Shown here piece after piece: positions 7,670-58,625 of a DNA stretch of 64,000 nt (position 1 is its first letter; every line of letters starts with the position of its first letter). Under the pieces are notes generated by a model that saw only the letters and a list, made by a program, of their open reading frames with translations, was not told where the DNA came from and searched no databases. The position numbers were made by a program, and so were the translations under genes. This DNA comes from Malacoraja senta (taxonomy: Eukaryota), in contig CM075988.1 of NCBI GenBank assembly GCA_038087875.1, forward strand, positions 6,760,001 to 6,824,000. Direction: 5' to 3'.

Positions 7670-7769
7670 CTGTAAATAAACAAGAAAGGATTAATCGTGT
7701 TACCGATATGAATTAACTCAGAACTGCCCTCAATCCGGCCTTTAAAATACTTGCAAACCAATTAAATGT

Positions 7770-8480
7770 TAAGCAAAACACAAAGTGTTGGGGGAATCCA
7801 CGGGGTCAGGCAGCATCTGTGGTGTGGATGGACGGATGATACTTCTGGTCAGGACTCTTCTTAAGACTGATAATTGGAGTAAGTGGAAGAAATCTGGAAA
7901 AGTGAAGTAGTGGTGGGACAAAGCAGGGCAAGTGATGATAGGTGGATACAGGTGAAGTGTGACAGGTAAATGAGTGGAGTAAGTGACAGAGGTGCAGAGG
8001 AGACAAAAGGATGTCAGATACGGACATCTAAAGTGTGAGGGTGCGATAGGGGTGGAAAGGGACTGGTGATAGGGCAAAGGAAAACATGGGACTTGGGGAT
8101 GGGAGATGAGTGGTCAAAGGAGGGGAATAAAAGCAGGGCGATTAGAGTGGTGGGAGATAGGGGGTGTCGATGGGAAGAGGCGCGTACATGGGGAGGGAGG
8201 CAGGGAAAAAGTAGGGGGAGCGGTTATTACTTGAAATTGGGGAATTCAATCTTCATACCGTTGGGTTGTAAGCGACCCAAGCAGAATATGAGGTGATGTT
8301 TTTCCAGCCTGCGTGTGTGGCCTCACTCTGGCAATGGAGGAGGCCAAGGACAGAAAGGTCAGTATGGGGATGGGAAGGGGAGTTAAAATGGTTAGCATCG
8401 GGAGATCCAGTAGGTCTTGGTAGACACAGCGCAAGTGTACCACAAAACAGTCGCCTAATCTATGCTTGGTCTTGCCGATG
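7770..8480 (-). mobile_element. Degraded Penelope-like 3' end
   Basis: Same endonuclease C-terminus (8225-8480) and terminal repeat (7770-7870) as the 12-kb and 49-kb copies. Confidence 0.7.
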
Positions 8481-8976
8481 TGAAGACTGCAGCACCTGCA
8501 GTTTCATGAACCAGAATCTCACATCTATCAGAAAATTGATTGTTAACACTGTTGATGCTGTGATGGTCTGGTAGAGTAGATTTTGGAGATGATTACTTAA
8601 TTGAACATGTAACAATTGATACATTTAGGAAGGAGATGAGGAAGAATTTATTTAGTCGGAGGGTGGTGAATCTGTGGAATTCATTGCCACAGAAGATTGT
8701 GGAGGCCAAGTCAATGGATATTTTGAAGGCAGAGATGGATAGATTATTGATTGGTAAGGGTGTCGGGGGTTATGGGGAGAAGACAGGAGAGTGGGGTTGA
8801 GAGGGAGAGATAGATCAGCCATGATTGAATGGTGGTGTGGACTTGATGGGCCAAATGGCCTAATTCTGCTCCTATCATGTATGAATGTATGAAGTCATTA
8901 TGGGCATGAAGTTCTTGGCTTATTTTGTTATATCATTAGTTATCTAGCCAACGCACAACACCAACTGAACACTTAC

Positions 8977-9012: not shown

Positions 9013-9851
9013 CTATAAACATAAAGGAAATCATAGAATGATGTACTTGTAGTGAACAAATATACTAAGAGCATTCAATTCCAATGTCAGATGGGAAGGA
9101 AGTATAAGTGAATCTGCTGTTTGATTTTCTGTCAAAGTTAACGTCATGAACTGAAATTTTCTTTAATTCCAAATTTACATGGAGGGACAAACTCACATCC
9201 GTCAAGTACCCTCGACCCGAAATGTCACCTATTCCTTTTCTCCGGAGATGCTGCCTGACCCACTGAGTTACTTCAACATTTTGCGTCGATCTTCAGTGTA
9301 ACCAGCATCTGCAGTTCCTTCTTAAAGATAATTGTTACAACTGTTGTATAAGTTAGTCTTCGAGGATCACATAACCCTCAAAGAACTAACTTACGCAACA
9401 TGTGTAGGAAGGAAATGCAGATGCTGGTTTAAACTGAAGATTGGCTCGAAAAGCTGGAGTAACTCAGTGGGTCAGGCAGCATCATGGAGAAAATGAATAG
9501 GTGATGCTGTCTGACCCATTGAGTTACTCCAGGTTTTTGTGTCTATCTAAACTTAAACAACAGTTGTTGCCTCAGTCAGTACCTATCCTACAACTATAAA
9601 ACCGCATAGCCTTCTCATCACACCATACCTTGAGTGCGAGGGCCTCTTGTGTCTGGCTGCATCCAGGAAATTAACCATTGACACTGTGTCAAGAGCCCCA
9701 ATATTAATCCCTCATGTGAGAAGTAACCCAAATTTTGGCATTATGAACCTCAAACATTGTGTTACTGTGCCACAAAACTGTCAAATACAAATCTATTTCA
9801 AAGACACACCACCACCCGACTATAACAAACTTTCTACGGCCTTTATCTTAA

Positions 9852-10158: not shown

Positions 10159-10344
10159 TAAGTAAATGTCTACCATCATACTAACACTAATGGAAGAAAT
10201 AGGAATTCTTGCATTATAAAGTCATAGACAGGTACAGCACCCACCAGGCCCTTCAGTGGACTAAGTCCATGCTGACCATCAATCACACATTTACACCATT
10301 CCTACAATAATCCCATTTGTTATTCTTAACATAGTCTCATCATC

Positions 10345-11190
10345 AGATTCCTTCGGGCTTAAGAAGTTTGGCAGCTTCCCAACTACTCTCACCAGCTTCT
10401 ACGGATGCACCGTAGAAAGCATTTTCTCAGGATGCATCACAGCATGGTTGGGTAACAGGTCCGTCACAGACCGCAAGAAATTGCAGAGAGTTGGGGACAT
10501 AGCGCAGAACATCACGCAAACCAATCTCCCTTCCATTGACTACATAAACACTTCACGCCCAGCAAGGCCACCAGCATAATCAACGATGAATCTCACCCGT
10601 CGCTCCCGCTTCTCCCATCTCCATCAGGCAAGAGGTACAGAAATGTGAAAACGCACACCATCAGATTCAGTGTTTAAGAAGGAACTGCAGATGCTGGAAA
10701 AATCGAAGGTAAACAAAAATGCTGGAGAAACTCAGTAGGTGAGGCAGCACCTGTGGAGCGAAGGAATAGGTGACGTTTCGGGTCGAGACCCTTCTTCAGT
10801 CTGATGAAGGGTCTCGATCCGAAACATCACCTATTCCTTCACTCCATAGATGCTGCCTCAGCCGCTGAGTTTCTCCAGCATTTTTGTCTACCATCAGATT
10901 CAGGGACAGTTTTGTCACAGCTGTTATCAGGCAACTGAACCATCCTATCACCCACTAGAGTGGGATCCTGGCTTCTTTACTGGATCCCATCTACCTCATT
11001 GGAAGTCCATCTGTAATTGGACTTTACTGCACTTTATCATGCACTAAACATTTTATTCTCTATCTGTACACTGTGAATGGCCTGGTTGTAATCGTGTATA
11101 GTCTTTCCACTGACTGGATAGCACGCAACAAAAAACGCTTTTCACTGTACCTTGGTACATGTGGCAATAATATAGTAAGCTAAACTAAAA
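10345..11190 (+). mobile_element. Rex1/Babar-like LINE 3' fragment
   Basis: FLR.LKKFG...FY.CTVESI.SGCITAW.GN...DRKKLQRV; tail cactgtaccttggtacatgtggcaataa. Confidence 0.7.
10671..10889. mobile_element. Fold-back PLE-derived mini-element with two hammerhead-like cores (minus 10772-10799, plus 10801-10828)
   Basis: Near-perfect palindrome centred near 10800; perfect 14-bp TSD ACCATCAGATTCAG at 10657-10670 and 10890-10903; inserted in a Rex-like LINE. Confidence 0.8.
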
Positions 11191-11890: not shown

Positions 11891-12060
11891 AACTTCTGAA
11901 GTTTCAATTTCAAAGTGCTGGCTGGCAAGACTAGGTACATCCAGGTACTTGAGACATCTCTGTATCAACCCCCAGCTACCTGAGGTGCAGGAGCAGATGT
12001 AACCCAACAAGGAGATGCAGATTGACCTAGTCATTCTCCATACCAATAAGAGCAGTAATA

Positions 12061-12960
12061 GCATCTATGGAACGAAGGAAATAGGCAACGTTTCGGGCCA
12101 AAACCCTTCTTCAGACTGATGTAGGGTGGGGTGGGGGCGGGGGGGGGGTGGTGGTGGGATGAAGAAAGGAAGAGGAGGGGCCAGAGGGCTGAGGGAGAGC
12201 TGAGAAGGGGAGGAGACAATAGGGCTACCGGAAATTGGAGAAGTCAATGTTCATGCCGTTGGGGTATAAACTGCCCAAGCGAAATATGAGGTGCTGCTCC
12301 TCCAATTTCGGTGGTGCTCACTCTGGCCATGGAGGAGGCCCAGGACAGAAAGGTCGGATTCGGAATGGGAGTGGGAGTTGAAGTGCTGGGCCACCGGGAG
12401 ATCAGGTAGGTTATTGCGGACCGAGCAGAGGTGTTCGGCGAAACGATCGCCAAGCCTACACTTGGTCTCACCGATGTAGCTCAGCTGACATCTAGAGCAG
12501 CGGATGCAATAGATGAGGTTGGAGGAGGTGCAGGTGAACCTCTGTCGCACCTGGAATGACTGCTTGGGTCCTTGAATGGAGTCGAGGGGGGAGGTAAAGT
12601 GACAAGTGTAGCATCTCTTGCGGTTGCAAGGGAAAGTGCCCGGGGAGGGGGTGGTATGGGTGGGAAGGGAAGAATTGACCAGGGAGTTACGGAGGGAGCG
12701 GTCTTTACGGAAAGCAGATAGAGGGGGAGATGGGAAGATGTGGCGAGTGGTGGGGTCACATTGAAGGTGGCAAAAATGACGGAGAACTATTTGTTGTATG
12801 TGACGGCTAGTAGGGTGGAAGGTGAGGACTAGGGGGACTCTGCCCTTGTTGCGAGTGGGGGGGATGGGGAGAGAGAGCAGTGTTACGGGGTATTGAAGAA
12901 ACCCTGGTGAGAGACTCATCTATAGTAGGGGAGGGGTGTCCCTGAAGAATGAGGACATTT
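12061..12960 (-). mobile_element. Penelope-like retroelement, 3' part: GIY-YIG endonuclease plus 3' repeat with hammerhead core
   Basis: ORF 12251-12919: VPLVLTFHP...PCNRKRCYTC...FTCTSSNLIYCIRCSRCQLSYIGETKCRLGDRFAEHL (IY..YIGET motif with Cys linker); frameshifted near the end. Confidence 0.9.
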
Positions 12961-13004
12961 CTGATGCCCTGGTGTGTCCTGAATGAGGACATTGGACCCT
13001 GGTT

Positions 13005-13156
13005 CCAAAATTGGGAGCAGCACCTCATATTCCACTTGGGCAGTTTATACCCCAGCGGTGTGAACATTGACTTCTCCAATTTCCCGGTAGCCTTTATTGT
13101 CTCCTCCACTTCTCAGCTCTCCCTCCAGCCCCCTCTGGCTCCTTCTCTTCCTTTCT
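13005..13156 (+). mobile_element. Inverted Penelope 3' fragment abutting the 12061-12960 copy; runs into the assembly gap
   Basis: EQHLIFHLGSLYPSGVNIDFSNF is the same C-terminus as the neighbouring copy, in opposite orientation. Confidence 0.75.
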
Positions 13157-14095: not shown

Positions 14096-14560
14096 TAATA
14101 ATCATAATCATACTTTATTAGCCAAGTATGTTTTGCAACATACGAGGAATTCGATTTGCCATACAGTCATACCAATATAAAGCAACAAAACAAACAAAAT
14201 ACATTTTAGCATGAACATCCACCACAGTGACTCCTCCACATTCCGCACTCTGATGGAAGGCGATCCGAAAAACAATCGCATCTCCGGCAAGGTAAGAGAT
14301 TGAAAAAAAGTTTCCCCGACCCGACACCCCCCACATAAAACAAACCAGAGAACATTAACACATACTTTTTAAACACAGCAAAAATAACAAAAAAAAAGAC
14401 GAAAAGGACAGACAGACTGTAGGCGAGGTTGCCACCAAAGCGCCACCCGGTGGAATGCTTTATCTTTTCAAAAATTGCAAACATATCACACTAGACCACT
14501 GGAGTAATGTGGACAATTCTGAGCATCGTACTTCAGGGTTGACTTCAACACCACAGGGGT

Positions 14561-14737
14561 AGACAAAAATGCTGGAGAAACTCAGTGTGTGAGGCAGCAT
14601 CTATGGAGCGAAGGAATAGGTGACGTTTCGGGTCGAGACCCTTCTTCCTTCCTTCGCTCCATAGATGCTGACTCACCCGCAGAGTTTCTCCAGCATTTTT
14701 GTCTACCTTCGAATTTTTCCAGCATCTGCAGTTCTTT
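14561..14737. mobile_element. Fold-back PLE-derived mini-element
   Basis: Inverted arms; direct repeat CTTCAACACCACAGGGGT at 14543-14560 and 14738-14755. Confidence 0.8.
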
Positions 14738-15278
14738 CTTCAACACCACAGGGGTGAGGGGGTTGTGAAAATTTGGGCTGTCCAAGGACCAGCAAATGTT
14801 GGTGGCATTTATCAAAAGTATGAGACATTGAGATGAAATCGATGGAGATGGCGATTCATCAGCTGAATAAATCAATGTCCATTAAGGGAGTACGGGTGTC
14901 AGGGGATACAGGGAGAAGGCAGGAGAAGGGGGTTGAGAGGGAAAGATAGATCAGCCACGATTGAATGGCGAAGCAGACTTGACGGACCAAATGGCCTAAT
15001 TCTGCTCCTATAACCTATAAACATGAATATCCAGATCTTAAATTTATACAGCCACTGAATGGCAGCAGTAGGGAAGATTTTATTTCCCCACTATGCAAAC
15101 CCAATTTGTAAGTAAAATTGTAGGTAAAAGGTTATCTAATGCTTCTTTCATCAGTACACATGATCTGAGGCATTCATTTTCCAATGGGTCTTACACTTGT
15201 TGAGGCAACTGGAAATTTCCACTCAAGACATTTTAGTCACATTAGATGGTATTTCAGGGAAATGAAGATCTGATTTTT

Positions 15279-21804: not shown

Positions 21805-23106
21805 CTTTAGACTTTACCTCAGAGATACAAAATGGAAACAGGCCCATCGGCCCACCGAGTCCACGCCAACCTGAAATCACCCCATACACTGACCTACACA
21901 CACTAGGGACAATTTTACAACTTACCAAAGCCAATTAACCTGTAAACCTGTATCTCTTTGGGGTGTTGGAGGGAACCGGCACACCTGGAGAAACCCATGC
22001 AGTTGCAGGGAGAACATATAAACTCCGTACAGACAGCACCCGTAGTCAGGATCAAACCCGGGTCTCTGGTGCTGTAAGGCAGCAACTCTACCGTTGTGCC
22101 ACCGTGCTGCTCTCAATGAGTGGTGAATTCTTCCATGAAGTACCTTGCTAGGATTAGATACGGGGAACTCGATTTTCTTCATCCCATCGCTGCTGAACAG
22201 AACCGCTTGTTTCAATGACTCAGTTACGTCCTCTCATCCACTCAATAAAATGTCAAATCAGAGCTGAATGTGGTACAATGGGGAGCTTTGATCCATTCAT
22301 TCTTATCTGTAGAAACAAAGAACTGCAGGTGCTGGTTTATACCAAAGATAGACAAAAAGTGTTGGAATAACTTAGCAGCTCCTCTGGAGAAAAATTATCG
22401 GTGCTGTTTCGGGTCAGGACCCTTCTTCAGACCTAAAGTGTGAAGATGAGTGTGAAGAAGGATCCCGACCTGAAATGCCACCAATCCATTTTCTCCAGAG
22501 ATGCTGCCTGACCTGCTGATTTATTCCAGCACTTTGTGTGTATCATTTTTATCTGTATTTGGGAACATGACGTAACTGCTTTATTGTCTATAACTCTGTT
22601 CTATTTGGCGTCAGACCTTCATAAAGATTGAGGGCCATTTGGGTGTTGGTAGTGTTAAATTCTGGATTGGCATATGATCACATTTGAGCTCAAAAGCCAG
22701 TTCAATTAATTGCTTCCCGTGGATGACCTGGATGAACCAGGAAATAGCCGCACTAATTACAAGTTATGTTCTCATAATGCCAAGAGGAACACAGTTCAAT
22801 CTAGAGGATCCAATATGCATGATTGCACAGGAAAGTCTAACAGAAGTGGTCACGGTGGCGCAGCGGTAGAGTTGCTGCCTTACAGCGAATGCAGTGCCGG
22901 AGACCTGGGTTCAATCCCGACTACGGGTGCTGTCTGTACAGGGTTTGTATGTTCTCCCCGTGACCTGCATGGGTTTTCTCCGAGATCTTTGGTTTCCTCC
23001 CACACGGGTTTGTAGGTTAATTGGTTTGATAAATGTTAAAATTGTCCCTTGTGGGTGTAGGGTAGTGTTAATGTGCGGGGATCACAAGTCGGCGCAGACC
23101 CGGTGG
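21805..23106. mobile_element. Two SINE copies (21805-22110 minus; 22848-23106 plus)
   Basis: Same motifs. Confidence 0.7.
22312..22543. mobile_element. Fold-back PLE-derived mini-element
   Basis: Inverted arms; 14-bp TSD with one mismatch at 22298-22311 and 22544-22557. Confidence 0.7.
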
Positions 23107-23413: not shown

Positions 23414-26400
23414 TAAGCAAGCTTTGTTAGGGTAACCGGGTGAGAAGAGGGACAATGGTTCACTGACAGATCCAGACAAAGGCAACGGCTGGAGGCCCTG
23501 CAGAAGCCTGGGGCTCACCTGGATCGGGCACCGCTCTATAAACCCTAGCAAGCAGACCAGATTTTGGAACTTTGGAAATAGTGCCAAATCTAGTGGCTTG
23601 AAAAATAATTGCACTGTGTTTTACACATGTGACAATAAAGCACCATTGTAACATGGATCATGTGCAGGCAGATGAGATTAGATTAACTTGGCATCATGTT
23701 CAGCAAGGCCTTTGTGGGCTTTCCTGTGATGCACTGTTCTATGTTCTCTGGTCTGAAGCTGGTGAGCTGTAGTGAAGCTCTGCTGTCATGGTACTGAGGA
23801 CTAGGCTTTGATATGGTGTAGGCCTTTTGACATCTGATTGTCCTTTAAACATTGTAATCGTACCTACCTTTATCACTGCCTGCAGCAGCCCCTTCCATAA
23901 ACTCATCATCACCCTCCCTGAAAAAAAAAATGTTCCTCTGGCCTCATTAAAATCTTTCACCTTAAACCTATGTCCTCTAGCTTTAGACTCGCTTACCCTT
24001 GGAGAACGACTGTGACCTCCACCTTACGCTCCTCGTGAATTTATAAACCAAATAGGTTACACCCAAGCCTGGTAGTGACCTATTTGTAACTCCTGACTCA
24101 TCGGTGTGGTTGGCTTCTAATTGCCTACTACTGTTTCAAGCAAATTAGCAATGAAGAACAACTAACAACTTGGAAAGCAATGCAATTAAGGCTAATTGAG
24201 GTTTAATATTACTGTTTGCTTGACACTTCAGCTATTATCTCAAGGGTTGAGTTAGGGGTGGAGCTTGAGGGGCATTAGTTGTTGCATGGGGGATATTTTG
24301 GGTAAGGATTGAATACTATTAACATGTAGGAAGGAACTGCAGACGCTGGTTTACACCGAAGATAGACACCAAAAGCTGGAGTAACTCAACGGGTCAGACA
24401 GCATCTCTGGAGAAAAGAAAATGGGTGATGTTTTGGGTCTAGACCCTTCTTCAGACACTATTAATACTATTATGATTTTTTTTGGAATTTTTCATTTGGT
24501 TAGAAGTTAGGTTTAATTTGGATGAATTTGTTTGGGGGTTTGGGAATGATTTATTATAATCCAGGTGTTTCTTTTTTGGAGAAGATTAACTGTTAGCAAC
24601 AAGGAGTTGTTTTATTTTAGTTCTGAAGAAGTCTCGATTCAAACGTCACCCATTCCTTCTCTCCAGAGACGCGGCCTGAGTTACTCCAGCATTTTGTGTC
24701 TATCTTCGGTTTAAACCAGCATCTGCAGTTCCTTCCTACATGTTAATAGTATTCAATCCTTACCCAAAATAACCCCATTCAAAAAACTACTGCCCCTCAA
24801 ACTCCACTCAATCCTAGAGATAATAGCTGAACTACAAAGCAGGCAGTAATCAAACCCAGCATCTGCAGTTCCTTCCTGCACAGTATTTTTGATTAGTGTT
24901 TGTTTCCGTGCTGAGGTTAGATTGAGGGTAATTTGAATCGGTGTCATCGGGACAAGCCTGGGCTTGTCACAAGTTCTCACGTCTTGAGTTTCTTCATTTC
25001 ATTGGCAACTGTCTCTTATATGTGCTTATTTTTCTTATTTTTACCTACTCTCTCCTCGGCTTATTTCAATGTCGAGGTTCCGAAGGTGGTTCCACACCAG
25101 ATGAAAGTACATGGATGCCAACTGAGCGATACTTTAAGGATTTGAATGAGTGTAAAGCGACAAGAGTTGTTTTGGAGTTAGGAATTGCTCAATAGGGCTT
25201 GTTTGGCCCAGGGTCTGAGTTATAGAGAGATGCTGGGCTGGCTAGAACTTTATTCCGTGGAGTGTAGGAGGCTGAAAGGTATCATATAGAGGGGTATAAA
25301 ATCATGAGGGATAAAAATAGGGTAAATGCACAGAGGCTTTACCCCAGGAATAGGGAATGAAGAACTAGAGGGCATTGGTTTAAGGTGAGAGGGTGAGGAT
25401 TTAATAGGGCCCTCAGGGGCACCATTCTCACACAGGAGGTGGTGGGTCTATGGAATGAGCTGACAGAGGAAGGGGTTGAGGGTTGTACAATAACAAGTGC
25501 ATGGGTAGGAATGTTTCAAAGTGCTATGGGTCAAAAGCAGGCAAATGGGATTCGCATAGATGGTCATGTTGGTCGGCATGGACAAGTTGGGCCGAAGGGA
25601 CTGTTTCCGTACTGTACGACACCATGCATTTCTAATTAAGTCTGGTTTTGAGGCTAGGATGTTACCAAATATGGATTAGGATTGACTTTACGGCTAGAAG
25701 TTAGGAGGCTTCAGGATATGTTTGTTTATGGGTAAAGGTTGGATTGTTTTGAAGGTTTTGGTTGGAATTTTCTTAAGAGATAGGATGGGATCTTTTAAGA
25801 GTTTGAGTTTAGTGCTATGCAATTAGTGAATTGCAATTGACAGTTTAGGATTGCTTAAAAGTTTGTGGAGGGTTAGGAATAGGCTAATAGGTTAATGGAA
25901 TAAGTTTAGGATCAGCGTTAGGGTGATACAGAGTTGTCACTTGCAATGTGCACTGTTGTTTTGCCACCACAGTTGCTGCCTGATCCACTGGGTCTCTCCA
26001 ACAGTTGCTTTTTGCCCTGTAAACAATAGGATTGTTCTCATTAGTGTAGGTGACTCATGAGAGGTTTTGATTGAAGGAGATTGCTAATTGATCTGTGCAT
26101 CCAAAGAGAGGTGTGTTTTGATTTTTATTTGTTCTACAGCCACGTCCCCTTAAGAGGCGCTGGTATCAGGGATTATATGTTCCCAGTACATTTTATGATG
26201 AATGTACATATAAATATTAATATAAATTGTACATATACTGTACAAATAGTACATACAAATATACACATAAATAATTTGAGTATGTGTGAAAGAAGATAGA
26301 CAGAAGATAGAGTAACTCAGCGGGACAGCCAGCATCTCTGGAGAAAAGGAAAAGATTATGTCTTGCGTCGAGACCTTCAGCAGACAGAATAATTTAACTT

Positions 26401-35178: not shown

Positions 35179-36460
35179 CACTAAGTTACAAATATTTTTA
35201 ATGGTGGGATTGAGGATTGTCACTATTAATTTCTGTCCTTGTTTGAAATTTGTCTTGTCACATAGTTCAAAGTTGAGGGAGTGCTTTTAAATAAACTTTA
35301 GTACCATGGTCAGGATGGCCAGATTTGGATCTGGAACCACTTAAGTTACAAGCACAGCAAAGCTTCTTTTATACCTCCAGAACAATATTGCATAACATAC
35401 CTGCTTCTCTGAACAAAAATGTGTCACTCTCAGCAAACCCTGGCTCACCCCTCTCACTCCTCATTACATTACAAATTGCTAAAATCAATCCCGCAGTTTC
35501 TTCCACAGAGGCTGGATCAGCGCTGTAAGTAGGTCGCCAATGTCTTCTGGTTCGTGTCTACAAAATGGCAGGTTGATACGTACACCTTAAGTGTACCCTC
35601 CTACTTAGATTATCATTACAAGGAGAGACACTGTAATTTGGTCCTGGATGCATATTCTCCACAGGCAGGCATAAGAATCGATCAAAGCAGGGTGTAGAGA
35701 GAGAATGACCCTCAATAAGCCATCCATTTCCTCACTTACAAGATCGGTATTATAACCTGCTGCCTTGAGTACACTGTTTAACATTTTTAATTTACCTTTG
35801 CAGAGATGCTCTTTGAGCCTTTTTAGATTTTATCTCTTGAGTGAGGACAGGGGCAAGAACTGAAACCAATGGTGCCTCCATAAAAACACAAGACATAGCA
35901 GCAGAATTAGGCCATTCGGCCCATCGAGTCTGCTCCTTATCACAGGAGTGGCTTTCTCAAGCACAGTCTGAGTATAGCTACTGTAAACTTGCCTCTGTGG
36001 GACAGAGCAATGCTAGCATCATTATATTTAGTACTCGACATTCAGCTGGGGCAAGGGTACAGCAGGCAGTGGAATCATTTTAGATCATGACTAAACTGTA
36101 CCTTAATCTTATCGATCTGCTTTCACCTCATAAACCCTTAACTTAACAAAACCTAATATAGCGTTTAGGAAGGAACTGCAGATGCTGGTTTACACTGAAG
36201 ATAGACACAAAATACTGGAGTAATTCAGCGGGTCAGGCAGCATCTCTGGAGAAAACGAATAGGTGACGTTTAGGGTCGAGACAAGAAAGGTCTTGACCCG
36301 AAACGCCACCTATTCCTTTTATCCAGGGAGCCTGTAAAACCAAATACAGTATTGATGTTAGTTTTTAAACCCAACGTCCATACTTTGTGAGGCGAATTAA
36401 CTCCAGATTTCCAAGATGTGTCTCCCGCCAGATTTATAGTGATGTACGGCAACACTGTAA

Positions 36461-36757: not shown

Positions 36758-37268
36758 TTAGTGTTTTTTAAGGTTATTTAGTTACCGGGTTTGCAGACAT
36801 ATCACTCCATAGTATTGAACTGACCAGGAATGAATAATGCATAGTGTAAGACTGGACTTTTCAAAGGCCTGTGTGCTGTCAATTTACCATCTGTATGCCG
36901 TGTTTTCTTCTTAATATTCATTGTATACAATACAATAATAATTTACATCCATCGTGGAAATAAATATATAAATAATCATAGCACCAATGAGGTAATACTT
37001 AACAATGAGCAGGATCAGGGTACAATGCTGTCTTCAGAAGCTTTAAACAAGTGATATTAACCTGTAAAGTGTTAAGCAATCTACTTTTTATGGACAATAC
37101 AATAAGACAAGGACATGTCTTATAAAAGAATTTTGGTTTCTTAGGCAGGAAGGTGACCGATAGGAGTTAGGATGTAAAATAGTGAGGAGCAGAGACTGAC
37201 GGGCGGAAGGTAACGCTTCCTTCTGATAGAATTCGTTTGAAAGGAAATTAAAGTGAATTTAGAAGAAA

Positions 37269-37547
37269 TGTAGAAACAAGGAACAGCCGATGCTGGTTTA
37301 TACCAAAGATTGATAGACACAAAGTGTTGGAGTAACTCAGCGGGTCGGGCAGCATCTCTGGAGAAAAAGGATGGGTGACATGTCGGGTCGGGACCCTTCT
37401 TCAGACTGAAAAGTCCTCGGACTACTTCAAACTGAGTTTGGTCCTTCTTCAGACTGAAAGAGGGACCCGACCTGAAACGTCACCCATCCTTTTTCTACGG
37501 AGATGCTGCCTGACTCGCTGAGATACTCCACCACTTTGTGTCTATCG
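37269..37547. mobile_element. Fold-back PLE-derived mini-element
   Basis: Inverted arms around a short spacer; TAAAGTGAATTTA repeated at 37249-37261 and 37548-37560. Confidence 0.65.
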
Positions 37548-38523
37548 TAAAGTGAATTTATTTGGGTTTATTGATAACCTTTCCCTCCCACACCCCAACT
37601 TGCACCACTCCCAGCATCCCCTACAGTGCGACTGCACCCAGGAGTAGAAAGCATCAGTATTGCTGCACCAACTCACTCCTGTCTAATATAATGCCATGGG
37701 ACATAGGGTGCTATGAAGCTGGCAACTTAGCTTTCAGCCTCCCTGGTGATCACCAGTCCTGCAGCTTTGATACTGTGGCAATACTGACCTGGTTATGCAC
37801 ATTGTTCTTACACCATACAGACACCCCTGAGGTAAAACCCTCAGCCTGTACCATGAAAGGAATATCTCCATTCAAAGCAGTGCATTGAGACCACTTGAAA
37901 TGAGACAGAACTGTGATCTAGGAGTATGGGGAAATTGTGGTGAGTTGCTTCATGTATTTCACCATTATTACCTATGGTTTTAGAGGGATATGGGCCAATG
38001 CCGGCAGGTGGGCCAAGTGTAGAAGGGGCATGCTGGTCAGCATGGGCAAGTTGGGCTTGTTTACACACTCTATGACTCACTATACCCTGATAGGAAGGCC
38101 ACTTCCCCTAAAGTTTCCACTATCCAAATTGTGGATGGGCTCGTGCTGATAAGCATTAAATCCCTTAATTCCAGTTTATATGGTTGCAGGACCGAGAGTG
38201 TTCACTTGATTCCCCTTTACTAGTTGTCGTTCTCATTCCACATCAACTCGATTAACTGACTGGTGACTTGAGAAAAGCAGAGAAGCTGGCGTTTGGGGAG
38301 AGCGACTTTCAAAGGGACATCTGCCCACCAGGTGGTGGAGGGCTATCTCAGAGAGGCTGGTGACAGTGGAGGAGTACGTTACAGAGGTGGCAGGTGGCAA
38401 GGTGTTCTACCCACACAGATGGCACCAGAGAGAAATACATGCCAGAGTGCGCTCTATCTAAACAGGGATGGTCAATTTGTGAAGGGGACACTTTACTGCA
38501 GAGCACATAACAGAGAGAAGCTA

Positions 38524-40806: not shown

Positions 40807-43800
40807 TTAGAAACTTTATCCCAGGGTGGAAATGTCCAATACTAGAGACCATAGCTATAAGATAAAAAGAGGAAAGTTTAATGGAGATGTGCAGGACAAG
40901 TTTTTCCTTACACAGGGTGTAGTTGGGGACTGGAACCCATTGCCAGGTGTGGAGGTAGATACATTAGTGGCATTTAAGAGCCTTTTAGATAGGCACATGG
41001 AAGAGCAGGGAATAGAGGGATATCGATCGTGTACAGGTAGATGAAATCAGTTTAATTTGGCATCATGTTCAGCACAAACATTGTTCCTATGCTGTACTTG
41101 TCTGTGTCTGTTTCAATGTCTAGTGTCTAATGTTCCAATGCCAAAGAAGAGGTCACTAAGTCATTAATTTGGGGGGCATTCCCATTTAAAGAAATCATTG
41201 GTGTAAGAAATCTTTTCACCTCCCCGTTTACAAGCAGTTTAGAGCCTAACGTGTGTTCACAGAAGCAGCTGAGCTGAATGCTGCCTGATCATTTGCATAG
41301 TGCGGTTAGGAAGTGGGGCAGCAGTGTTACAGTGCTTTCTCAATATCAGACACACATGTGAAGGGGGGATTGGGAAAGGTGAAGTTTGAAAGGAGTGGTG
41401 TGTGATGAGGCTCCCAGTCCTATCTAACAGCCTGGATCAAAGCCTGTATTGTGACCATGTTATGATCAAGCCCCTTGATATGACCAGATCCCTGGTGTGA
41501 CAGAAACCCTCTCTGACAAAGGCCTCCTTGCTGCTTTAGGGCTTCGTGACTGAGCTGGGTAATGGCCTTCGTGAACGTCAAGCAAAAGGGCAGCACTTGT
41601 ACATCAATGTAGGGGACTCAGTGCTTACAAAAAGCGGTGATCCACTAAACCACTTAATGTGAGACTTGTTCCTCGTTTAGCTGTCATTACACAACTGAAG
41701 TTGTGCATCACAACCTTTTGATCCAGTTCCTGCAGTTGAGTTAAAGCTGTGTGCTGCCCTCCTAGACGATGTCATCAAGTGCGAAATACAAATGACAAAA
41801 TTTACAGGAGATTAAAGCGAAACAGGAAATTCCCTCCAACTTCCCCTAAAATAGGCGCAAAAACCTCTAAATTTGCACAAAAGCATTTTAAAGTTATGAT
41901 TTATGTACACACACACAGGAGCAAACGGTATATTTACAATCCACGGTTCAGGAGATCTTTAGAACTAGGTTTAAGGTGATTGGGGAAAGATTTAATAGGA
42001 ACCTGAGGGGTAACATTCTTTTACACAAAGGGTGGTAGGTATATGGAACAAGCTGCCAGAGGAGATAGTTGAGGCAGGTACTATCACAATGTTTAAAAAA
42101 CATTTGGATAGATACATGAATAGGATAGGTTTGGAGTGATATGGGCCAAACACAGACAGGTGGGACTAGTGTGGATGGGGCAAGTTGATTGGCATGGGCA
42201 AGTTGGGCCGAAGGGCCTGTTTTCACCCTATATGACCCTCTGACTAAATGTGAAGAATTAGTGGCACTACTCAATGAAGAGCAGGCGGACACTACCATTA
42301 AAGTAAGTAGTAGAGAAGTAGAAACAGTTTACAGTAAATGCTGGTTTACAAAGAAAGTCACAAAGCATTGGAATAACTCAACGGGTCAAGCAGCCTCTAT
42401 GGAGAACGTTACTGGTTGGGATCCCTCTTCAGCCACAAGTAATCTTGTTCTCTTGGGTAAAAAGCAAACTGCTGCAGTTACTCAGTGGGTCAGGCAACAT
42501 CCGTGCAGGGAAATGGACAATGTTTCGGATTGGGATCCTTCCTCAGTCTAAAGAAGGGTCCTAACCTAAAACTTCTTCTGTCCATTTCCCACCACAGATG
42601 CTGCCTGACCCATTGAGTTTCTCTAGCAGTTTGCTATCCCCTATATTTCCAGATGCAGAGTGGGGTGGTACAGCTACACGTCGGTAGAGTTGCAGTAGAT
42701 TTTGATCAGTGAAGGCAGAATCATTAAATTAGACTATACTCTCGAGACTTTTGCAGAATGAGTCGCAATCTCACCGGAATATATGAAATTCGATATTCTT
42801 ATGGGTTTTGATATGGGTCGATACAGGGATGAAGCTTCCCCTGACTGATGTGCCCAGAAATAGGAGTCACGGTCACAAAATAAAGGGTTGGCCATTCAAG
42901 ACTGTGCAGGGAGTACATTTCGTCACCCGGAGAATAGAATCTTTGGAATTCTCTATTCAAGAGAGCTATGAATAGAATTACCATATTCAAGGCAGAGAGA
43001 GAAGGATTTTTGAATATTAAGGGAATTAAGGGATGTGGAATTAGTGCATGAAAGTGGTTCTGAGGTAAAAGAACACCCATGATCTGACTGAATGATAGAA
43101 CAGGCACAGAGGGGCTGAATGGCCTGATCTTGCTTCTATTTCTTGTGTTATTAAGCTCCACCGCCAGGCTTTGGACAAGTTAATCAGTATTTTGTGTGTG
43201 TATTGCCGGCAAGGCCATCATTTAGTGCCTCTTTATTGAAGCCGCGTTATTGAACCATCACAGATGTCTACATCCTATTTCCAGCTTATTTCAGACTCCC
43301 TGTTTCCATCCGAGACGCACTAAACTGAGGTCAGAGCTACCCTCGGAACAACCTCGAGTAAATCATCGGGATTATGGCCAATAATACTTGAAACTTTATT
43401 CTTGCTATATTTCTGTCTCAATGAAATATTGTTCTGACATTCCAGGCTTTAGTTCAGGTCGCACAAGGGAGTAGTTGTCAATACATTGTGGGGAAAATCA
43501 ATTTTTAATTACCATCCAGCACATTCAAGCGAGGCTCCTTCACCTCTCCTCACCTTATAAGGTCACTGCGGTCAACAGATGTCATGGCACTAAGAGGGAA
43601 TGGAGATTCAAAGGGTCCAGCCAGCATAGCGGCATCTTTAACGTGTGTTTAACCACACGTTTGTTAGAAACATAGAAAATAGGTGCAGGAGTAGGCCATT
43701 CGGCCTTTCAATATGATCATGGCTGATCATCCAACTCAGTATCCTGTACCTGCCTTCTCTCCATACCCCCTGATCCCTTTAGCCACAAGGGCCACATCTA

Positions 43801-48620: not shown

Positions 48621-48939
48621 CCACATGGCTGGACACCGTGAGACCAGCGGGCCGTGGCCTGTCGAAGGAAGCTGCTGCTGAACTCGACCCTGCTCATCCC
48701 CGAAGACCAGAGGAGCCACCGGCGACAACGGACATAGGGCCGTGCGGCGGAAGCTCTCTGAGGGCCTTGCGGGCGGTTGCCAAACCACGACAGGCAGCGG
48801 CCGTGGAGCCGGGGTATCCCACCTGCAGTGGGTCCGAGGCTCGTCTCCCGCCCGCCCCCGAGAACCAGGAACCGGAAGGAGGAGAGGGTCGGCAACACCG
48901 GTGGATGCTGGACAAAGGGCCGGGAGGAGAACCGGATGT

Positions 48940-49571
48940 CACTTGCACCTCCTCCAACCTCATCTACCATATCGGTTGTTCAAGATGTGGACTCATACAT
49001 CGGCGAGACCAAACGTAGACTGGGTGAATGTTTCCCTGAACACCTTCGCTCAGTCCGCCTGGACCTACCTGATCTCCCGGTTGCCAAACATTTTAATTCC
49101 CCTTCCCATTCCCACGCTGACCATTCTGTCCTGGGCCTCCTCCATTGTCAGACTGGGGCCAAATACAAATTGGAGGAACAGCACCTCATATTTTGCTTGT
49201 ACAGCTTACAACCCGGCGACATGAATATTGATTTCTCTAACTTCAAGTAACCCTTCAAGCCCTCTCTCTCCGTCCCTCCCCCACCCAAGTCAATGTACTA
49301 GCTTCAAAGTCGTCTTGTTGAGTCTCATTGTCTGTAACTAATTTTCACCTCGACCATGGCTAACAATGGCCTGTCTCTTTTATCGTCGTTAGTTTTTTGC
49401 ATTTCTTTCATTCATTTGTTCTATATCTCTGAATATCACCGTCTAAATCTTTTGTTTCCCTTTCCCCCGACACTCAGCCTGAAGAAGGGCCTCGACCTGA
49501 AACGTCACCTATTCCTTTCCTCCAGAGATGCTGTCCGACCCGCCGAGTTACTCCAGCATTTTGTGTCTATC
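48940..49571 (+). mobile_element. Penelope-like retroelement 3' end: GIY-YIG C-terminus, 3' UTR and hammerhead-containing repeat
   Basis: TCTSSNLIYHIGCSRC / YIGETKRRLGECFPEHL...KHFNSPSHS...LEEQHLIFCLYSLQPGDMNIDFSNFK*; CTGAAGA...GAAACGTC at 49479-49506. Confidence 0.88.
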
Positions 49572-50232
49572 CCTGGGGGTCCGACCTTCCGTGCCGTCAA
49601 GGTCGGCTGTGGGAGGCGCCCCCCCAGGGCACGAAGACTGAAGGCCCGGAGAGGAGAAGGACGGCTCGCTGGCAAAATGAATGAGGTGATGGCTGCAATG
49701 GGGCCTTTATGGCCAACTGCAGCATGGACTGTGTAATAACGGTGTCAAATCTGGAGACTGTTGCATATGGACTCAGTGGGCTGTTTCCATGCATGTGGTA
49801 CTATTGGGGATTGTCTTTATGTACGGCAATAATCGCTCTGATCTATGTGCAAAAAAAGTATTTCATTGTACCTTTGGAACATGAGATAATAAAAGAACCA
49901 TTGAACCACTGAACCATCATTAAACCAATATTGCTCAGCAATGTACAACACCCACTGTTGAACTGAATTGCTCTGCAAAGGAGATTCTTCTGTCTATTAC
50001 AAATAAATAAAGACTCGTTGTTTTATTGAAATTTAAGTCTTGGGGCCAGGCATTTCGTTACGATAATTGCTGATAATCTGATGATTGCAGTTATCTATTT
50101 CCAAGATCTGGATTCACTGATATAGGAGAGGCAGGTTTAAAATAACAATGTGCTTGTTTCCCTGTGGCAGAAGACTGCAGTAAATTCAGCATCGTTTATT
50201 AGGCTGCAGTAAGACAGGAATATATAAAAGGC

Positions 50233-51197
50233 ATTGGAAGGAACTGCAGATGCTGGTTTAACACCAGGTGGCGCTGTCAGCGATGGCAGCCTTGCCTGCA
50301 GTCTGTTTGTCCTGTCGTCTTTTTTGTTATTTTTAGTGTGTTTTAAAAAGTATGTGTTAATGTTCTTTGGTTTGTTTCATGTGGGGGGTGGGATGGGGGC
50401 GGTCGGGGGAAACTTTTTTTCAATCTCTTACCTTGCTGGAGATGTGATTGTTTTCCGGATCATATCTCCGGTCGCTCTGTGGCCTAACATCTTGGAGCTG
50501 GAGGCCTTGCTCGGGACTGACTTTGAGCCCCACCGCGGGGCCGTGGACTTACCATCGGAGCCTGCGATCCCTTGCCTGGGATCGACGCTCCAACTGCGGC
50601 CTGTGGATTTCAACATCGAGGAGCTCGCAGTCTCGGGTAGAGACTGATGTCGGGAAGCTCCAAGCCGCAGAAGGTTAGAACCGGGAGCCCCGAATCGGGA
50701 TTCCGATCGCCCGACGCGTGGAGCTGAGATACCCCACCCATGCGGGAGCTTGATCGCCCCGATGCGAAGGGCTCGACCGCCGGTTGCGGGAGCCAAGATC
50801 ACCCCGACATCGGAAGGTTCGAGTGCCCCAACCGCGGGAGAACAAAGAAGGGAAGATTGAACTTTTTGTTGCCTTCCATCACAGTGAGGAATGTAGGGGA
50901 GTCGCTGTGTTCATGTAAACAAATTATTTGGGTGTCTTGTTGCTCTTTATGGTACGACTGTATGGCAATCTGAATTTCACTGTACCTTAGTTGGTACGTG
51001 TGAGAATAAACTCACCTTGAAACCTTGAAAAGGCTGGAATAGCTCAGCGGGACAGGTAGCATCTCTGGAGAAAAGAAATAGGTGACGTTTCAGGTCAAGA
51101 ACAGAAATTCAGTCTTGACCCATAACTTCATCTATTCCTTTTCTCCAGAAATGCTGTCGGACCTGCTGAGTTACTCCAGCTTTTTGTGTCTATTTTT
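50233..51197. mobile_element. Fold-back PLE mini-element interrupted by a ~770-bp GC-rich element (50262-51030)
   Basis: 15-bp TSD GAATATATAAAAGGC at 50218-50232 and 51198-51212. Confidence 0.7.
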
Positions 51198-51863
51198 GAA
51201 TATATAAAAGGCTTGGTTTGGCCTCTGAGATTGACCACAATAAAATGATTCTGTGCTGAACTCATCCAGCAGATTTTTAATATCACCTTGGACCACTTTT
51301 AAGAATTGTGACCAACATCTTTGTGTTGTGGATACATTGCTTTTGTGTTGAATTTGCCAGAAAGTCTACTTTGGTAGAGAAAATTCACTGTAAGAAATGC
51401 TGGTTACATAATATAGGATCCTTTATAAATAGTTGCCAAGAAGTTTTGCTGCTAATTCATGTCACTCCTCACTGTAACATCAGTGTTGCTGATATACAAA
51501 TCTCATAAACATCCCAAAATAATGTTTTGCTTCATAGGTGTTATAAGAGATATGGTACAATGCCGATGTATTTTGAAAATGTTTCCTTCCTTAAGAAATA
51601 CAAGATAGAACTTTAGACTTTACTTTAGAGATACAGCATGGAACCAGGCCCTTGGGCCCATCGAGTCTGTGCCGACCAATGATCACTAGCACTATTCTCC
51701 ACACTAGGGACAATTTACAATTTTCATGTCTTAGGAATGTCTTAGGAATGTGGGAGGAAACCGGAGCACCCGGGGAAAATCCACACAGTCACAGATAGAA
51801 CATACAAATGCCGTACAGACAACACCCATAGTCAGGATTGAACCTGGGTCTTTGGCACTGTAA

Positions 51864-53380: not shown

Positions 53381-53875
53381 TCAGTTATTTTACTTTAGGT
53401 CTGAAGATGGTTCTCGACCCGAAACGTCACCCATTCCTTATCCAGAGATGCTGCCTGTCCCGCTGAGTTACTCCAGCATTTTGTGTCTATCTTTCTTATA
53501 TATTTTGTAGGAAGGAACTGCAGATTTGAAGGGTTCTGACCCGAAACGTCACCTATTCTTTTTCTGAAGAGATGCTGCCTGACCCGCTGTGTTACTGCAG
53601 CATTTGGTGTCTATCTTTATATACTGTAATAGTCAATGTGTAGCCATCTACATAGCTGATTGTATGTATGTGTGTTAAAGTGAGATGGTTCCTACGAGTG
53701 TCTGCATAGATGTGTGTGCGTGTATGTGTGTGGGGTGGGAGATTGCATCCTTCACGTTTCGAAACCCTGTTTCGACGAATGCAATCAATCTGACGTGCAC
53801 AATCAAGTAAGATCAAATAGAACAAGTTGTCCTACAACTATAGGCTGTGCACGCCATACGCAAGAAGAAGAAGAA

Positions 53876-54944: not shown

Positions 54945-55518
54945 GGAGACATAAGGAACTGCAGATGCTGAAATCTTGAGCATAAACCCAAAGTGCTGGA
55001 GTAACTCAGCGGATCGGGCAGCATCTGTGGAGGGATTGCACAGGTGACGTTTCGGGTCAGGGCCCTTATTCAGTCTGATTGTAATAAGAGGGAGAAAGCT
55101 GGAAGAGAGGTGCGGTGGGGGATGGGACGGAGGTTGGGAATTGAAAGGTGGATAGGCACAAAATGCTGGAGTAACTCAGCGGATCAGGCAGCATCTCTGG
55201 AGAAAAAGTATAGGTGATGTTTCGAGTTGGAACCCTTCGAAGGAAGGAACTGTAAATGCCGGTTTATACCGAAGGGTTCCGATCCGAAACATCACTTTTT
55301 CCTTTTCTCCAGAAATGCTGCCTGACCCGCTGAGTTATTCCAGCATTTTGTGTCTGCCTTCGGTATAAACCAGCATCTGCAGTTTCTTCATACACAAGTG
55401 ATAGGTGGATAGTGGTGGTGAGGGCTGGGGAGGGGGGTGGGGGGGAGGTTCATGGAAGAGATGACAAAGGCTAGAGATGAAAAGGAGACAAAAGGGCGTC
55501 AGATAAGTCGAGAAGTGA
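54945..55518 (-). mobile_element. Penelope 3' UTR and terminal repeat with a nested fold-back unit (~55155-55395); truncated by the gap
   Basis: Terminal repeat at 54950-55077; purine-rich UTR on the + strand similar to 2495-2760. Confidence 0.6.
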
Positions 55519-56570: not shown

Positions 56571-58090
56571 CCTATACTCGACACATCGCTTACAACTTAA
56601 AATAAAATCTGCAATTTTTCAGACTTGCCTTAACGCTGGGATCTCAAAATCCAGCCCCTCTGGCACTCCTTTCTTGCCTCAGAATGTCTCTGCGTTTTCT
56701 GAGTTGCAGTCTGGTGGAAACTTGTGATGGGGATAGTCTGGCAAGTCTTGTGCTAACTCAATGCTAATTATATCCAATGCTAATTGGCCTTGCTCTCGTA
56801 CCAAGTGCAGGGGCCACACAGCCATGCGTACAGCGGTCGGCAGCATCTGCCTTTTGCCCCATGATTTGCATTTCCTTGCAGGACAATGGGTCCTTTCAAA
56901 TACCACCCTGCTGCTGTCATTCGGGAAGCGATGATCTGATCTAATTTGGCAGCAGTTCAAAATAAATCTAAAAATAAATGATTCTGCCTTTCCAATATTT
57001 AATCTTCCCGTGGGTCTCCAGTAGTAGACACAATTCGGGATTCGATATCATAGAAATGGGTCATCTTACCAATAGGTTTTGTACGAGTGTTGATATCCCA
57101 GTTAAAGGTTTCTGACTCCACATTATCGGTTTGGTTTTATACCAGACATGAATACATCATCTCGTGCAAAGGAAACCAAACAGAATGCAGAATCTAACAC
57201 TGCAGCCACGGAGAAAGTGCAGATTGAAAGAAAACTGCAAGAGCTCCAACAAGATAGATTGGAAGATCAGGAGTTCATCCCCAACATTTGAGAGGTCCGT
57301 TCGAGAGTCTGAGAACAACAGTGAAAAAGCAGCTTTTCAATCTGGTGGCACGTGCCTTCAAGCTTTTATATCTTCTGACTGATGGGAGAGGGGGGAGGAG
57401 GGAATGACTGGGGAGTTAGTGGTCCTAAATATATTGGTTGCTTTCCCAAAGTAACGTACAGTATAGGTGGTGTCAAAGTACAGTAAATGTGGTGTCAGCA
57501 TGGAGGGGGTGGTGGAGAGATTGGTTTGTGTGATGGACTGAGCTGCGTTCACAACTCCCTCCAATTTTTGTACAGTTCCCATTAAAAAGCTGTGAAGCAT
57601 CCGGTTAGGATGCTCTCTGCTGTACATCTTAAAGAACTGGTCAGATTCACTGGAGCTAAGCCGAATTTCCTAAGCCTTCTGAGGAAGTAGAGGCATTGAT
57701 GTGTGATTTTTTGATGTGGCTCAACGATGATAAATTGTTGCTGATATTTATAGCTCGGAACTTATTTCATCTAACCCTAACATAATTTCTAATTGTTTTT
57801 TATCATTCAGATGAACTATTCAAGAAATATATCTGAGCCGGGAGGAGTTTTCCAGCTTATGGTTTTCAGCTCACCGATGCTGGTTCACCAATAAGGAGGC
57901 AAAGTGGTCGAGGAACTCAGTGGGTCAGGCTGCATCTCCGGTACACTGTCTATGTTCTCCAGTGATGCTGCACTTTGCGTCTCTCTGTGTAACCGTGTGT
58001 TAAACTGCCATTGCCTGTGTCAGAGCACTGCGTAGGAAGGAACTGCAGATGCTGGTTTAAACCGAAGATAGACACAAAAAGCTGGAGTAA

Positions 58091-58625
58091 AAGGGCCTGT
58101 CCCACGAGCATGCGACTGCATGTGGCTAGCGCGACCTAACGTGGTCGCTTGAGCCGTACGGCCTCGCGGGGCCGGTCCCACTTCGATCGCCGGAGCCGTA
58201 TGGAGTTGTGCGGAGGCTGGTCCCGACATCGCGCGGGGCTCCGAAAAACTGACTGTGTTCAAAAATTCGCGCGGCAGAGGCCTGTCGGCCCGCAGCCGCA
58301 TGGAGGCCGCACGCACCGCCTCGACGCCGTACGCAGCGTCTTGACGCCGAACGCAGCGTCTTGATGCTGTATGCAGCGTCTTGACGGCGTACACATAGTG
58401 CGTGGCGTTGCGCGATGACATCACCGCCCGGCGTGCCGTTGTGTGATGACGTAACCGCCCGACGCCTGCCCAGCTGATTGGTGAGTAGATGTCGGGACCA
58501 GCCCCGCACAACTCCAGACGGCTCCGCGGTTGGAAGTGGGACTGGCCCCGCGAGGCTGTACGGCTCAACCCATCACGTTTGGTCGCGCTAGACGCATGCA
58601 ATCGCATGCTGGTGGGACAGGCCCT
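58091..58625. mobile_element. PIF/Harbinger-type MITE, core E, nested in a PLE repeat
   Basis: Splits gctggag|TAA[MITE]TAA|ctcagcggg; internal 20-bp tandem unit x3 at ~58333-58390. Confidence 0.85.

What the first reader, a model, noticed from the sequence alone, without database searches (positions are those of the whole stretch)
10657..10903. Fold-back mini-retroelements carrying hammerhead-ribozyme cores on both strands, inserted as units with 11-18-bp TSDs
Seen: this ~220-bp palindrome has CTGAAGA-A-GGGTC-TC-GACCC-GAAAC-GTC on the minus strand (10799-10772) and CTGATGA-A-GGGTC-TC-GATCC-GAAAC-ATC on the plus strand (10801-10828), back to back. It sits inside a Rex-like LINE and is bounded by a perfect 14-bp duplication. 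The same fold-back design recurs at 14561 (18-bp direct repeat), 22312 (14 bp, one mismatch), 37269 (13 bp) and 50233 (15 bp), and in more decayed form near 9400, 42480, 55155 and 60425. Established: CUGAnGA...GAAA...NUH is the hammerhead catalytic core, PLEs carry minimal hammerheads in their terminal repeats, and PLE copies often have an inverted repeat. Inference: these are either independently truncated-and-inverted PLE insertions or a non-coding, retrozyme-like family that can self-cleave from either transcript polarity.
Basis: partly seen in the sequence, partly recalled or inferred. Interest (0 to 1): 0.75.

Follow-up and report, generated by a model that had tools for sequence, protein, structure and literature searches.

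The report
Inverted Penelope retroelement stumps with hammerheads
The palindrome, its two hammerhead-like motifs and its 14-base target duplication are real, but it is the mirror-image stump of a very abundant Penelope-type jumping gene, likely made anew at each site by copying the front end of the element's RNA into both strands, and its hairpin is predicted to lock the ribozyme motif rather than let it cut.

Summary
Observation largely confirmed: both motifs, the 14-bp duplication and the empty site in a paralogous LINE. The window holds 13 such fold-backs; 9 have 11-18-bp duplications. They are not one replicating family. Centres differ in 12 of 13. Arms group by Penelope subfamily, not by side (AU tests reject). 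The one recurring centre is a native TCAG-N-CTGA micro-palindrome, used in two subfamilies. Arms run straight into Neptune-type GIY-YIG ORFs at three places. Eleven of 13 carry the ~37-nt 'tail' on one end only, the published Penelope signature. Only the focal copy has a core on both strands, and its plus core is damaged. Opening either core costs about 40 kcal/mol. Cores are no better conserved than flanks. Most 5' ends stop just before CUGA, not at the cut site, which likely marks the RNA's start. One fold-back joins two subfamilies, pointing to two RNA templates. The scan found this before in other genomes (e1-9811310, e1-9157776, e1-9500928). A known kind; of modest use as fossils of Penelope integration.

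The parts
10657..10670 (+). left copy of the 14-bp target-site duplication
10671..10707 (-). ~37-nt Penelope 'tail' (long 3' end), on the left arm only
   Evidence: alignment; tail defined in PMC8557442 Fig. 2 legend and PMC11167929
10671..10799 (-). left arm: pLTR stump, hammerhead-sense on the minus strand, subfamily A
10772..10799 (-). minimal hammerhead core with intact ACGU helix III and GUC site
10796..10804 (.). centre: native TCAG-N-CTGA micro-palindrome where the two arms meet
   Evidence: the same 9-mer precedes CUGA in parents 12114, 7865, 55073
10801..10828 (+). second core, decayed (AUC site, helix III pair broken, G-U in stem II)
10801..10892 (+). right arm: pLTR stump with the short 3' end; 89% identical to the left arm
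10890..10903 (+). right copy of the duplication; its first 3 bases overlap the arm's end
10330..11070 (+). host LINE 3' end split by the insertion (Rex1/Babar-like, a lead only)
62712..63208 (-). paralogous host LINE with the empty site (14-mer once, 62875-62888)
12056..12976 (-). 5'-truncated parent Penelope-like copy: CX4CxxC linker, GIY-YIG, 3' UTR, hammerhead
13015..13156 (+). inverted partner of that parent, running into the N gap: a long version of the same head-to-head design
48914..49571 (+). second parent: GIY-YIG ORF remnant, 3' UTR, hammerhead, short end
7764..8497 (-). third parent (subfamily C): ORF remnant leading to the arm
9401..9548 (.). fold-back, long/short, no cores, weak duplication
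14543..14755 (.). fold-back, short/long, 18-bp duplication, no whole core
22297..22557 (.). fold-back, long/short, 15-bp duplication (1 mismatch), central spacer
24323..24742 (.). atypical fold-back, long/long, ~160-nt spacer, no duplication, inverted flanks
36148..36349 (.). fold-back, long arm plus early-ending arm, 14-bp duplication (2 mismatches)
37249..37560 (.). fold-back, long/short, 13-bp duplication, central spacer
42456..42640 (.). fold-back of subfamily C with the same centre as the focal copy; no duplication found
50218..51212 (.). fold-back with nested ~770-bp insert, 15-bp duplication
53506..53617 (.). fold-back whose left arm is tail only, beside a direct tandem arm
55139..55410 (.). 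fold-back, short/long, partial-tandem left arm, inserted in another copy's upstream pLTR
58020..58739 (.). fold-back with nested inverted-repeat element, 11-bp duplication
60394..60627 (.). fold-back joined at the stem II palindrome; arms from two subfamilies

Best explanation
This is a head-to-head pair of short end-pieces (pLTR stumps) of a Neptune-type Penelope-like retrotransposon, likely made once at this site when the element's endonuclease cut both strands 14 bases apart and each cut likely primed reverse transcription on uncleaved element RNA. Shown: membership of the arms, the empty site, the one-sided tail, copy-specific centres. Inferred steps: (1) one cut starts at the long (tail) site and the other at the short site about 37 nt earlier; (2) both cDNAs run 90-130 nt towards the RNA's 5' end and stop at or before a fixed point just upstream of CUGA, likely the transcription start; (3) the two cDNA ends anneal through whatever microhomology they offer, here the self-complementary TCAG-N-CTGA; (4) repair fills the staggered cut and leaves the duplication. 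The hammerhead is a passenger from the parent's pLTR; in the fold-back RNA it is predicted to be paired with its own antisense copy and inactive.
For: Arms are contiguous with GIY-YIG ORFs at 3 places; the ORF has the CX2-5CxxC linker of Neptune/Nematis (PMC8557442 passages) and 47-70% identity to 9 homologues, 6 of them from sharks and rays. Two discrete 3' ends; 11 of 13 fold-backs, and 9 of the 9 with a significant duplication, carry exactly one tail (p=0.011 for 11 of 13 at 0.5). Inverted pLTR + one-sided tail + TSD is the described typical structure (PMC3846280). The anole protein nicks and extends both strands and starts at two sites that bound the tail, on uncleaved RNA (PMC11167929). 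Centres differ in 12 of 13; the repeated centre lies in two subfamilies (one clade rejected, p-AU 0.006). Long arms, short arms and all fold-back arms are each rejected as a clade (p-AU 1.6e-5, 1.4e-15, 1.4e-101). At 60425 the left arm has the subfamily-A state at 6 of 6 diagnostic columns, the right arm at 1 of 6. Duplications flank 9 of 13 fold-backs but 2 of 14 lone arms. In 4 runs of related organisms 1450-1519 records per run stop matching right after CUGA's first letter plus about 3 bases, then run on as unlike AT-rich DNA; 528-802 continue into a parent's upstream sequence. Opening a core costs 39-41 kcal/mol in the fold-back and 4-5 in a lone arm.
Against: The two-template evidence is one locus (pair-as-clade p-AU 0.046) and later gene conversion could mimic it. 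For the focal copy alone, two primers cannot be told from one molecule folding back. 24323 (long/long, inverted flanks, no duplication) and 42456 (no duplication) do not fit. The transcription start is inferred from end positions and a recalled initiator consensus; no 5'-end RNA data. The aligner extends reads that continue ACTG, so the exact end (-1 to -3) is not resolved. No genome was held; the genome-wide data are contig fragments of related organisms with 135 and 481 joints unlisted. Focal-type centres do recur there (6 of the 24 listed pieces span it) and their number could not be counted.
Confidence: 0.72

Rival explanations
1. Same element and same independent origin, but the second arm is made by self-priming on one molecule at a palindrome (the model of Arkhipova et al. 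2013, which invokes an antisense template), not by a second target primer.
For: The focal, 42456 and 60425 centres sit on native palindromes. PMC3846280 reads palindromes at inverted junctions as self-priming. Inverted flanks at 24208-24850 and 9336-9406 look like fold-back copying.
Against: Arms of 60425 come from two subfamilies. Unrelated central spacers at 22308, 24323, 37269, 50236 and asymmetric, non-palindromic centres at 14558, 9401, 53506. Arm-to-arm identity gives no support (partner is the best match for 1 of 20 arms), though that test has little power in a star-like family.
Confidence: 0.14
2. The monomeric stump (start site to tail, about 132 nt) is itself a non-autonomous source element: it carries an internal promoter and both reverse-transcription start sites, is copied in trans, and in head-to-tail tandems may act as a dimeric retrozyme. 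Fold-backs would still be one-off insertion products of it.
For: Fixed 5' end and very high copy number (69,476-86,013 contigs laid in 3 DNA runs). The best-supported joint is tail-to-CUGA head-to-tail, in 60-68 contigs per run. Drosophila Penelope has an internal promoter (PMC2377424 passages). Non-LTR retrozymes are pLTR derivatives and occur in the one chondrichthyan sampled (bioRxiv 10.64898/2026.07.22.740005).
Against: Partial tandems are an ordinary PLE product (PMC8557442). Tandem joints are few beside 2154-2376 contigs with loose ends at the same place. No excess conservation of the core, stem II shows no covariation above shuffles, stem I is 2 bp. No intact tandem pair of cores in the window.
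Confidence: 0.11
3. The fold-back is a replicating, retrozyme-like unit that self-cleaves from either polarity.
For: The focal copy has a core on each strand; the focal-type centre recurs in the window and in related organisms; RNA reads cover both strands about equally.
Against: 12 different centres in 13 copies; clade tests reject arm lineages; 5 siblings have no whole core; one core per polarity, buried at about 40 kcal/mol; no pile-up of read ends (weak, a fragmented poly(A) library of a relative, 6% of the run).
Confidence: 0.03

Closest known systems
Typical insertion unit of endonuclease-positive Penelope-like elements: inverted pLTR, one-sided 31-40-bp tail, TSD (Adineta vaga Pen2a, PMC3846280; scheme in PMC8557442 Fig. 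2; passages read)
   Same: Head-to-head inverted pLTR copies, tail on one end, target duplication, palindrome or overlap at the inverted junction.
   Different: Here no ORF lies between the arms: the whole insert is two 90-130-nt stumps. Duplications are 11-18 bp against 8-10 bp in the rotifer examples. Copy number is far higher.
[quoted passage not shown]
   Same: CUGANGA, extra base before G10.1, G10.1-C11.1 pair, palindromic 15.2-16.2, no helix III; that paper already notes dual motifs 100-700 bp apart on opposite strands in Schistosoma and no cleavage of a single motif.
   Different: Stem II is 4-5 bp and stem I only 2 bp here; the two motifs are back to back and fully complementary.
Poseidon PAc of Anolis (Frangieh et al. 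2024, PMC11167929; parts 1-2 of 4 read)
   Same: Two internal reverse-transcription starts about 100-130 nt downstream of the hammerhead bound the tail; both strands are cut and extended; uncleaved RNA is the template.
   Different: Other clade (this one has the Neptune/Nematis linker). Several junctions here show 3-9 nt of overlap between duplication and element end, whereas PAc started without homology in vitro. Fixed 5' run-off is not described in the parts read.
Non-LTR retrozymes (PMC7229834 passages; bioRxiv 10.64898/2026.07.22.740005 parts 1-3 of 5)
   Same: Short, non-coding, pLTR-related, type I hammerhead.
   Different: Retrozymes are direct tandem repeats with a whole ribozyme in at least two consecutive units and yield circles; these are inverted pairs with one sequestered core per strand.

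Membership tests
EN+ Penelope-like element insertion (Neptune/Nematis type) | Sequence continuous with a C-terminal GIY-YIG ORF | tested here: met
   GIY-YIG E=0.003, under Pfam's cut-off; homologues carry RVT_1 plus GIY-YIG
EN+ Penelope-like element insertion (Neptune/Nematis type) | CX2-5CxxC linker and two cysteines inside GIY-YIG | tested here: met
   translation; definition. Neptune against Nematis not tested by a tree
EN+ Penelope-like element insertion (Neptune/Nematis type) | 30-40-bp tail on one end of the insertion | tested here: met
   11 of 13 fold-backs
EN+ Penelope-like element insertion (Neptune/Nematis type) | Inverted 5'-truncated copy head-to-head, with target duplication | tested here: met
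EN+ Penelope-like element insertion (Neptune/Nematis type) | Full-length RT-EN source element | not testable with these tools
   no genome held; only ORF remnants in the window
Minimal type I hammerhead of PLEs | Core boxes, base after A9, G10.1-C11.1, palindromic 15.2-16.2 | tested here: met
   minus core intact; plus core breaks the 15.2-16.2 pair
Minimal type I hammerhead of PLEs | Covariation in stem II | tested here: inconclusive
   87% of stem II cells paired, 1 compensatory cell, not above shuffles
Minimal type I hammerhead of PLEs | Self-cleavage as dimer or with protein | not testable with these tools
   needs an assay; no read-end pile-up (weak)
Non-LTR retrozyme | Direct tandem units, two or more consecutive whole hammerheads | tested here: not met
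   focal unit is inverted; no intact direct pair in the window; rare tandems exist in relatives
Non-LTR retrozyme | Replicates as a unit with shared structure | tested here: not met
Non-LTR retrozyme | Monomeric linear and circular RNA | not testable with these tools
   only a poly(A) library of a related organism had raw reads
MITE (DNA transposon derivative) | Fixed, symmetric termini and a fixed short duplication | tested here: not met
   ends differ by 37 nt, duplications vary 11-18 bp, lone arms are common

The most novel reading that the evidence does not exclude
The ~132-nt stump is a self-sufficient mini-element: it starts at its own initiator, overlaps a hammerhead with its promoter, ends at the reverse-transcription start, and is copied in trans tens of thousands of times; head-to-tail tandems give a dimeric ribozyme and a ~130-nt circle, and a two-RNA enzyme dimer lays two such RNAs head to head, so the fold-backs record both templates of a single integration.
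Probability: 0.12. Interest if true: 0.55.

Novelty: new member of a known kind. Interest (0 to 1): 0.22.

Why it matters
As an element it is ordinary transposon debris of a described kind. Its use is as a fossil record: how Penelope-like elements form inverted repeats and one-sided tails is stated as open in PMC8557442 and PMC11167929, and thousands of short, duplication-flanked fold-backs could test two-sided priming (tail asymmetry, mixed-subfamily arms) and map the RNA's start without a bench. It also warns that hammerhead motifs on both strands in shark and ray genomes are not signs of viroid-like or two-polarity RNAs.

Tried and rejected
No genome is held for the window. Pattern scans found nothing in metagenome contigs or viral contigs. 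Rfam gave no hammerhead family among 61 matches; hairpin microRNA hits over the fold-backs are far below gathering scores and rejected. No RNA holder was listed for the locus; this says nothing on expression. No place where many molecules begin or end in run X22; weak test. The 1413 and 1777 loose ends near the cut site in X22 (10766, 10834) are a divergent subfamily like 12114, not cleavage. Single arms do not fold better than shuffles (7 of 7 with z above -1.7). Arm-to-arm identity has little power. Tests first grouped arms by genomic left and right, which is the wrong grouping for a unit that can insert either way, and were redone by long and short end. A wider boundary 42318-42652 and 5 larger units gave no duplication. 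Pfam did not name the host LINE. MITE rejected (see membership). The antisense strand loosely resembles tRNA-type A and B boxes (recalled consensus); not pursued because ORF, tail and core all give the other orientation. Paper searches for a description of this family listed none; the library lacks most subscription journals and Repbase, so this is no claim of absence.

Full report
Observation. The 14-bp repeat at 10657-10670 and 10890-10903 is exact and occurs once in a paralogous host repeat at 62875-62888, so it is a true target duplication. A search with six reference arms gave 53 strand-specific hits, 2 of them upstream pLTR only. They form 13 fold-backs, lone arms and partial tandems. 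Nine of the 13 have a flanking repeat of 11-18 bp with p<0.02; 9401 is weak, 53506 confounded, 24323 and 42456 have none (14 boundary pairs tested). Only 2 of 14 lone arms have one. The title overstates the ribozyme part: a strict descriptor hits 4 places, both strands only at the focal copy, and there the plus core has lost the helix III pair. Five siblings have no whole CUGANGA on either arm.

What the arms are. On the hammerhead-sense strand the arm follows the 3' UTR of a GIY-YIG ORF at 12056-12976, 48914-49571 and 7764-8497. The ORF has the CX2-5CxxC linker that marks Neptune and Nematis elements (PMC8557442 passages). Its 9 homologues are 47-70% identical, 6 named from sharks and rays, and the 4 scanned carry RVT_1, 3 of them also GIY-YIG. 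The copy at 12056 has its own inverted partner at 13015-13156, a long version of the same design. The family is very abundant in related organisms: 69,476-86,013 contigs were laid on one arm in three runs and 95,719-128,665 on the palindrome; these are not copy numbers.

3' ends. The alignment shows two discrete ends about 37 nt apart. Eleven of 13 fold-backs carry the long end on exactly one side (p=0.011 at 0.5), including all 9 with a significant duplication. This is the published one-sided 'tail' (PMC8557442 Fig. 2 legend; PMC3846280), which PMC11167929 equates with the stretch between two internal start sites of reverse transcription. The same paper shows cutting and extension of both target strands and that ribozyme cleavage is not needed.

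Centres. Counted from the first C of CUGA, the arm starts are about 27/49, 1/-4, 3/34, -3/-3 with spacer, -2/-3 with spacer, 11/4, -5 with spacer, 1/-4, 12/11 with spacer, 108/6, 6/6 with a tail piece, 3/9 and 14/14: 12 kinds in 13 copies. The repeated one is the native 9-mer TCAG-N-CTGA that precedes the core in parents. It is used at 10800 in subfamily A and at 42547 in subfamily C, which the tree separates (100/96 and 99/98; one clade rejected, p-AU 0.006). In related organisms alternative centres are each seen in 1-9 contigs, with 481 joints unlisted, and 6 of 24 listed pieces span a focal-type centre. Recurrence is thus explained by microhomology. Long arms, short arms and fold-back arms as a whole are each rejected as clades (39 of 41 arms used, 2 under 68 nt left out). 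At 60425 the left arm has the A state at 6 of 6 diagnostic columns and the right arm at 1 of 6, which points to two templates in one insertion; it is one locus and gene conversion is not excluded.

5' ends. Of 23 arms that reach the core's start, 6 continue into parent sequence, 5 sit in a focal-type centre and 12 stop within 5 bases upstream. In four runs 1450-1519 records each stop there and run on as unlike DNA, against 528-802 that continue into one parent's upstream sequence (top 6 loose ends per run shown). The ends are not at the GUC site. The native TCAGTC fits an initiator consensus (recalled), and Drosophila Penelope has an internal promoter (PMC2377424 passages), so the likely cause is run-off from the RNA's start after initiation in the first pLTR.

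Ribozyme. The motif fits the minimal hammerhead of PLEs, for which single motifs did not cleave and dual opposite-strand motifs were already noted (PMC4209133). Among genomic copies core positions match the majority at 268/310 and downstream non-CpG positions at 2121/2468: no excess conservation. Stem II is 87% paired but does not covary above shuffles. The fold-back RNA is a -162 kcal/mol hairpin (z -22); in each polarity the single core lies 3' of its antisense copy, and opening it costs 39-41 kcal/mol against 4-5 in a lone arm. RNA reads fall on both strands about equally with no end pile-up, a weak test.

What stays open. Head-to-tail tail-to-CUGA joints are the best-supported joint in relatives (60-68 contigs per run). 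They fit ordinary partial tandems, but a stump-sized non-autonomous element or small retrozyme is not excluded. Self-priming on one molecule remains a rival for palindromic centres such as the focal one (PMC3846280).

Verdict. A new member of a known kind: Neptune-type Penelope-like insertion stumps in a likely skate or ray genome. Earlier reports of this scan reached the same reading on other genomes; they are not independent support. Papers seen: PMC4209133 and PMC11167929 parts 1-2 of 4 (plus one unreadable figure supplement), the 2026 preprint parts 1-3 of 5, passages of PMC8557442, PMC3846280, PMC7229834 and PMC2377424. Interest 0.22.

Noticed in passing
window 24208-24850: The inverted repeat runs about 110 bp beyond both tails into flanking DNA (82-91% complementary), with a ~160-nt AT-rich centre, no duplication and a third tail piece at 24853-24880; may be fold-back copying into target DNA. 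A smaller case lies at 9336-9406.
   Followed up: partly
window 60394-60627: Fold-back whose arms come from two subfamilies; a degenerate extra copy of the duplication seems to lie between the left repeat and the arm.
   Followed up: yes
window 10669-10671 / 10798-10802 laid on runs X1, X5, X7: Head-to-tail joint of a 129-132-nt unit (tail to CUGA) in 60-68 contigs per run: partial tandem or mini-retrozyme.
   Followed up: partly
window 14738-14746, 60612-60619, 58729-58734, 10890-10892: The duplication overlaps the element's native end by 3-9 bases at several junctions; at 58734 the arm ends early at such a match, suggesting priming by microhomology.
   Followed up: no
window 58091-58626: A ~535-bp element with 123-bp inverted ends and internal 20-bp repeats, nested in a fold-back arm; looks like a non-autonomous DNA transposon. 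Similar ends at about 9850-10160 and 53370.
   Followed up: no
window 50262-51027: A ~770-bp repeat nested in the tail-side arm of the 50236 fold-back.
   Followed up: no
window 57876-57990: Possibly a fourteenth, internally deleted fold-back; not counted.
   Followed up: no
window 27703-27736 (+): Weak partial match to the CPEB3 ribozyme model (27.6 bits, gathering 35, E 0.004); likely chance.
   Followed up: no
window 10770-10778 (-): The ACGT of helix III lies about 27-30 bases after the candidate start, where Drosophila Penelope has its downstream promoter element (RGACGTGY); ribozyme and promoter might overlap.
   Followed up: no
window 15270-17040: Long AT-rich (TA/TG) microsatellite-like array; source of most Rfam microRNA noise and the largest inverted repeats.
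   Followed up: no
window 52740-53070 (-) and 193-279 (+): Further Penelope-like ORF remnants (RT part; endonuclease end).
   Followed up: no
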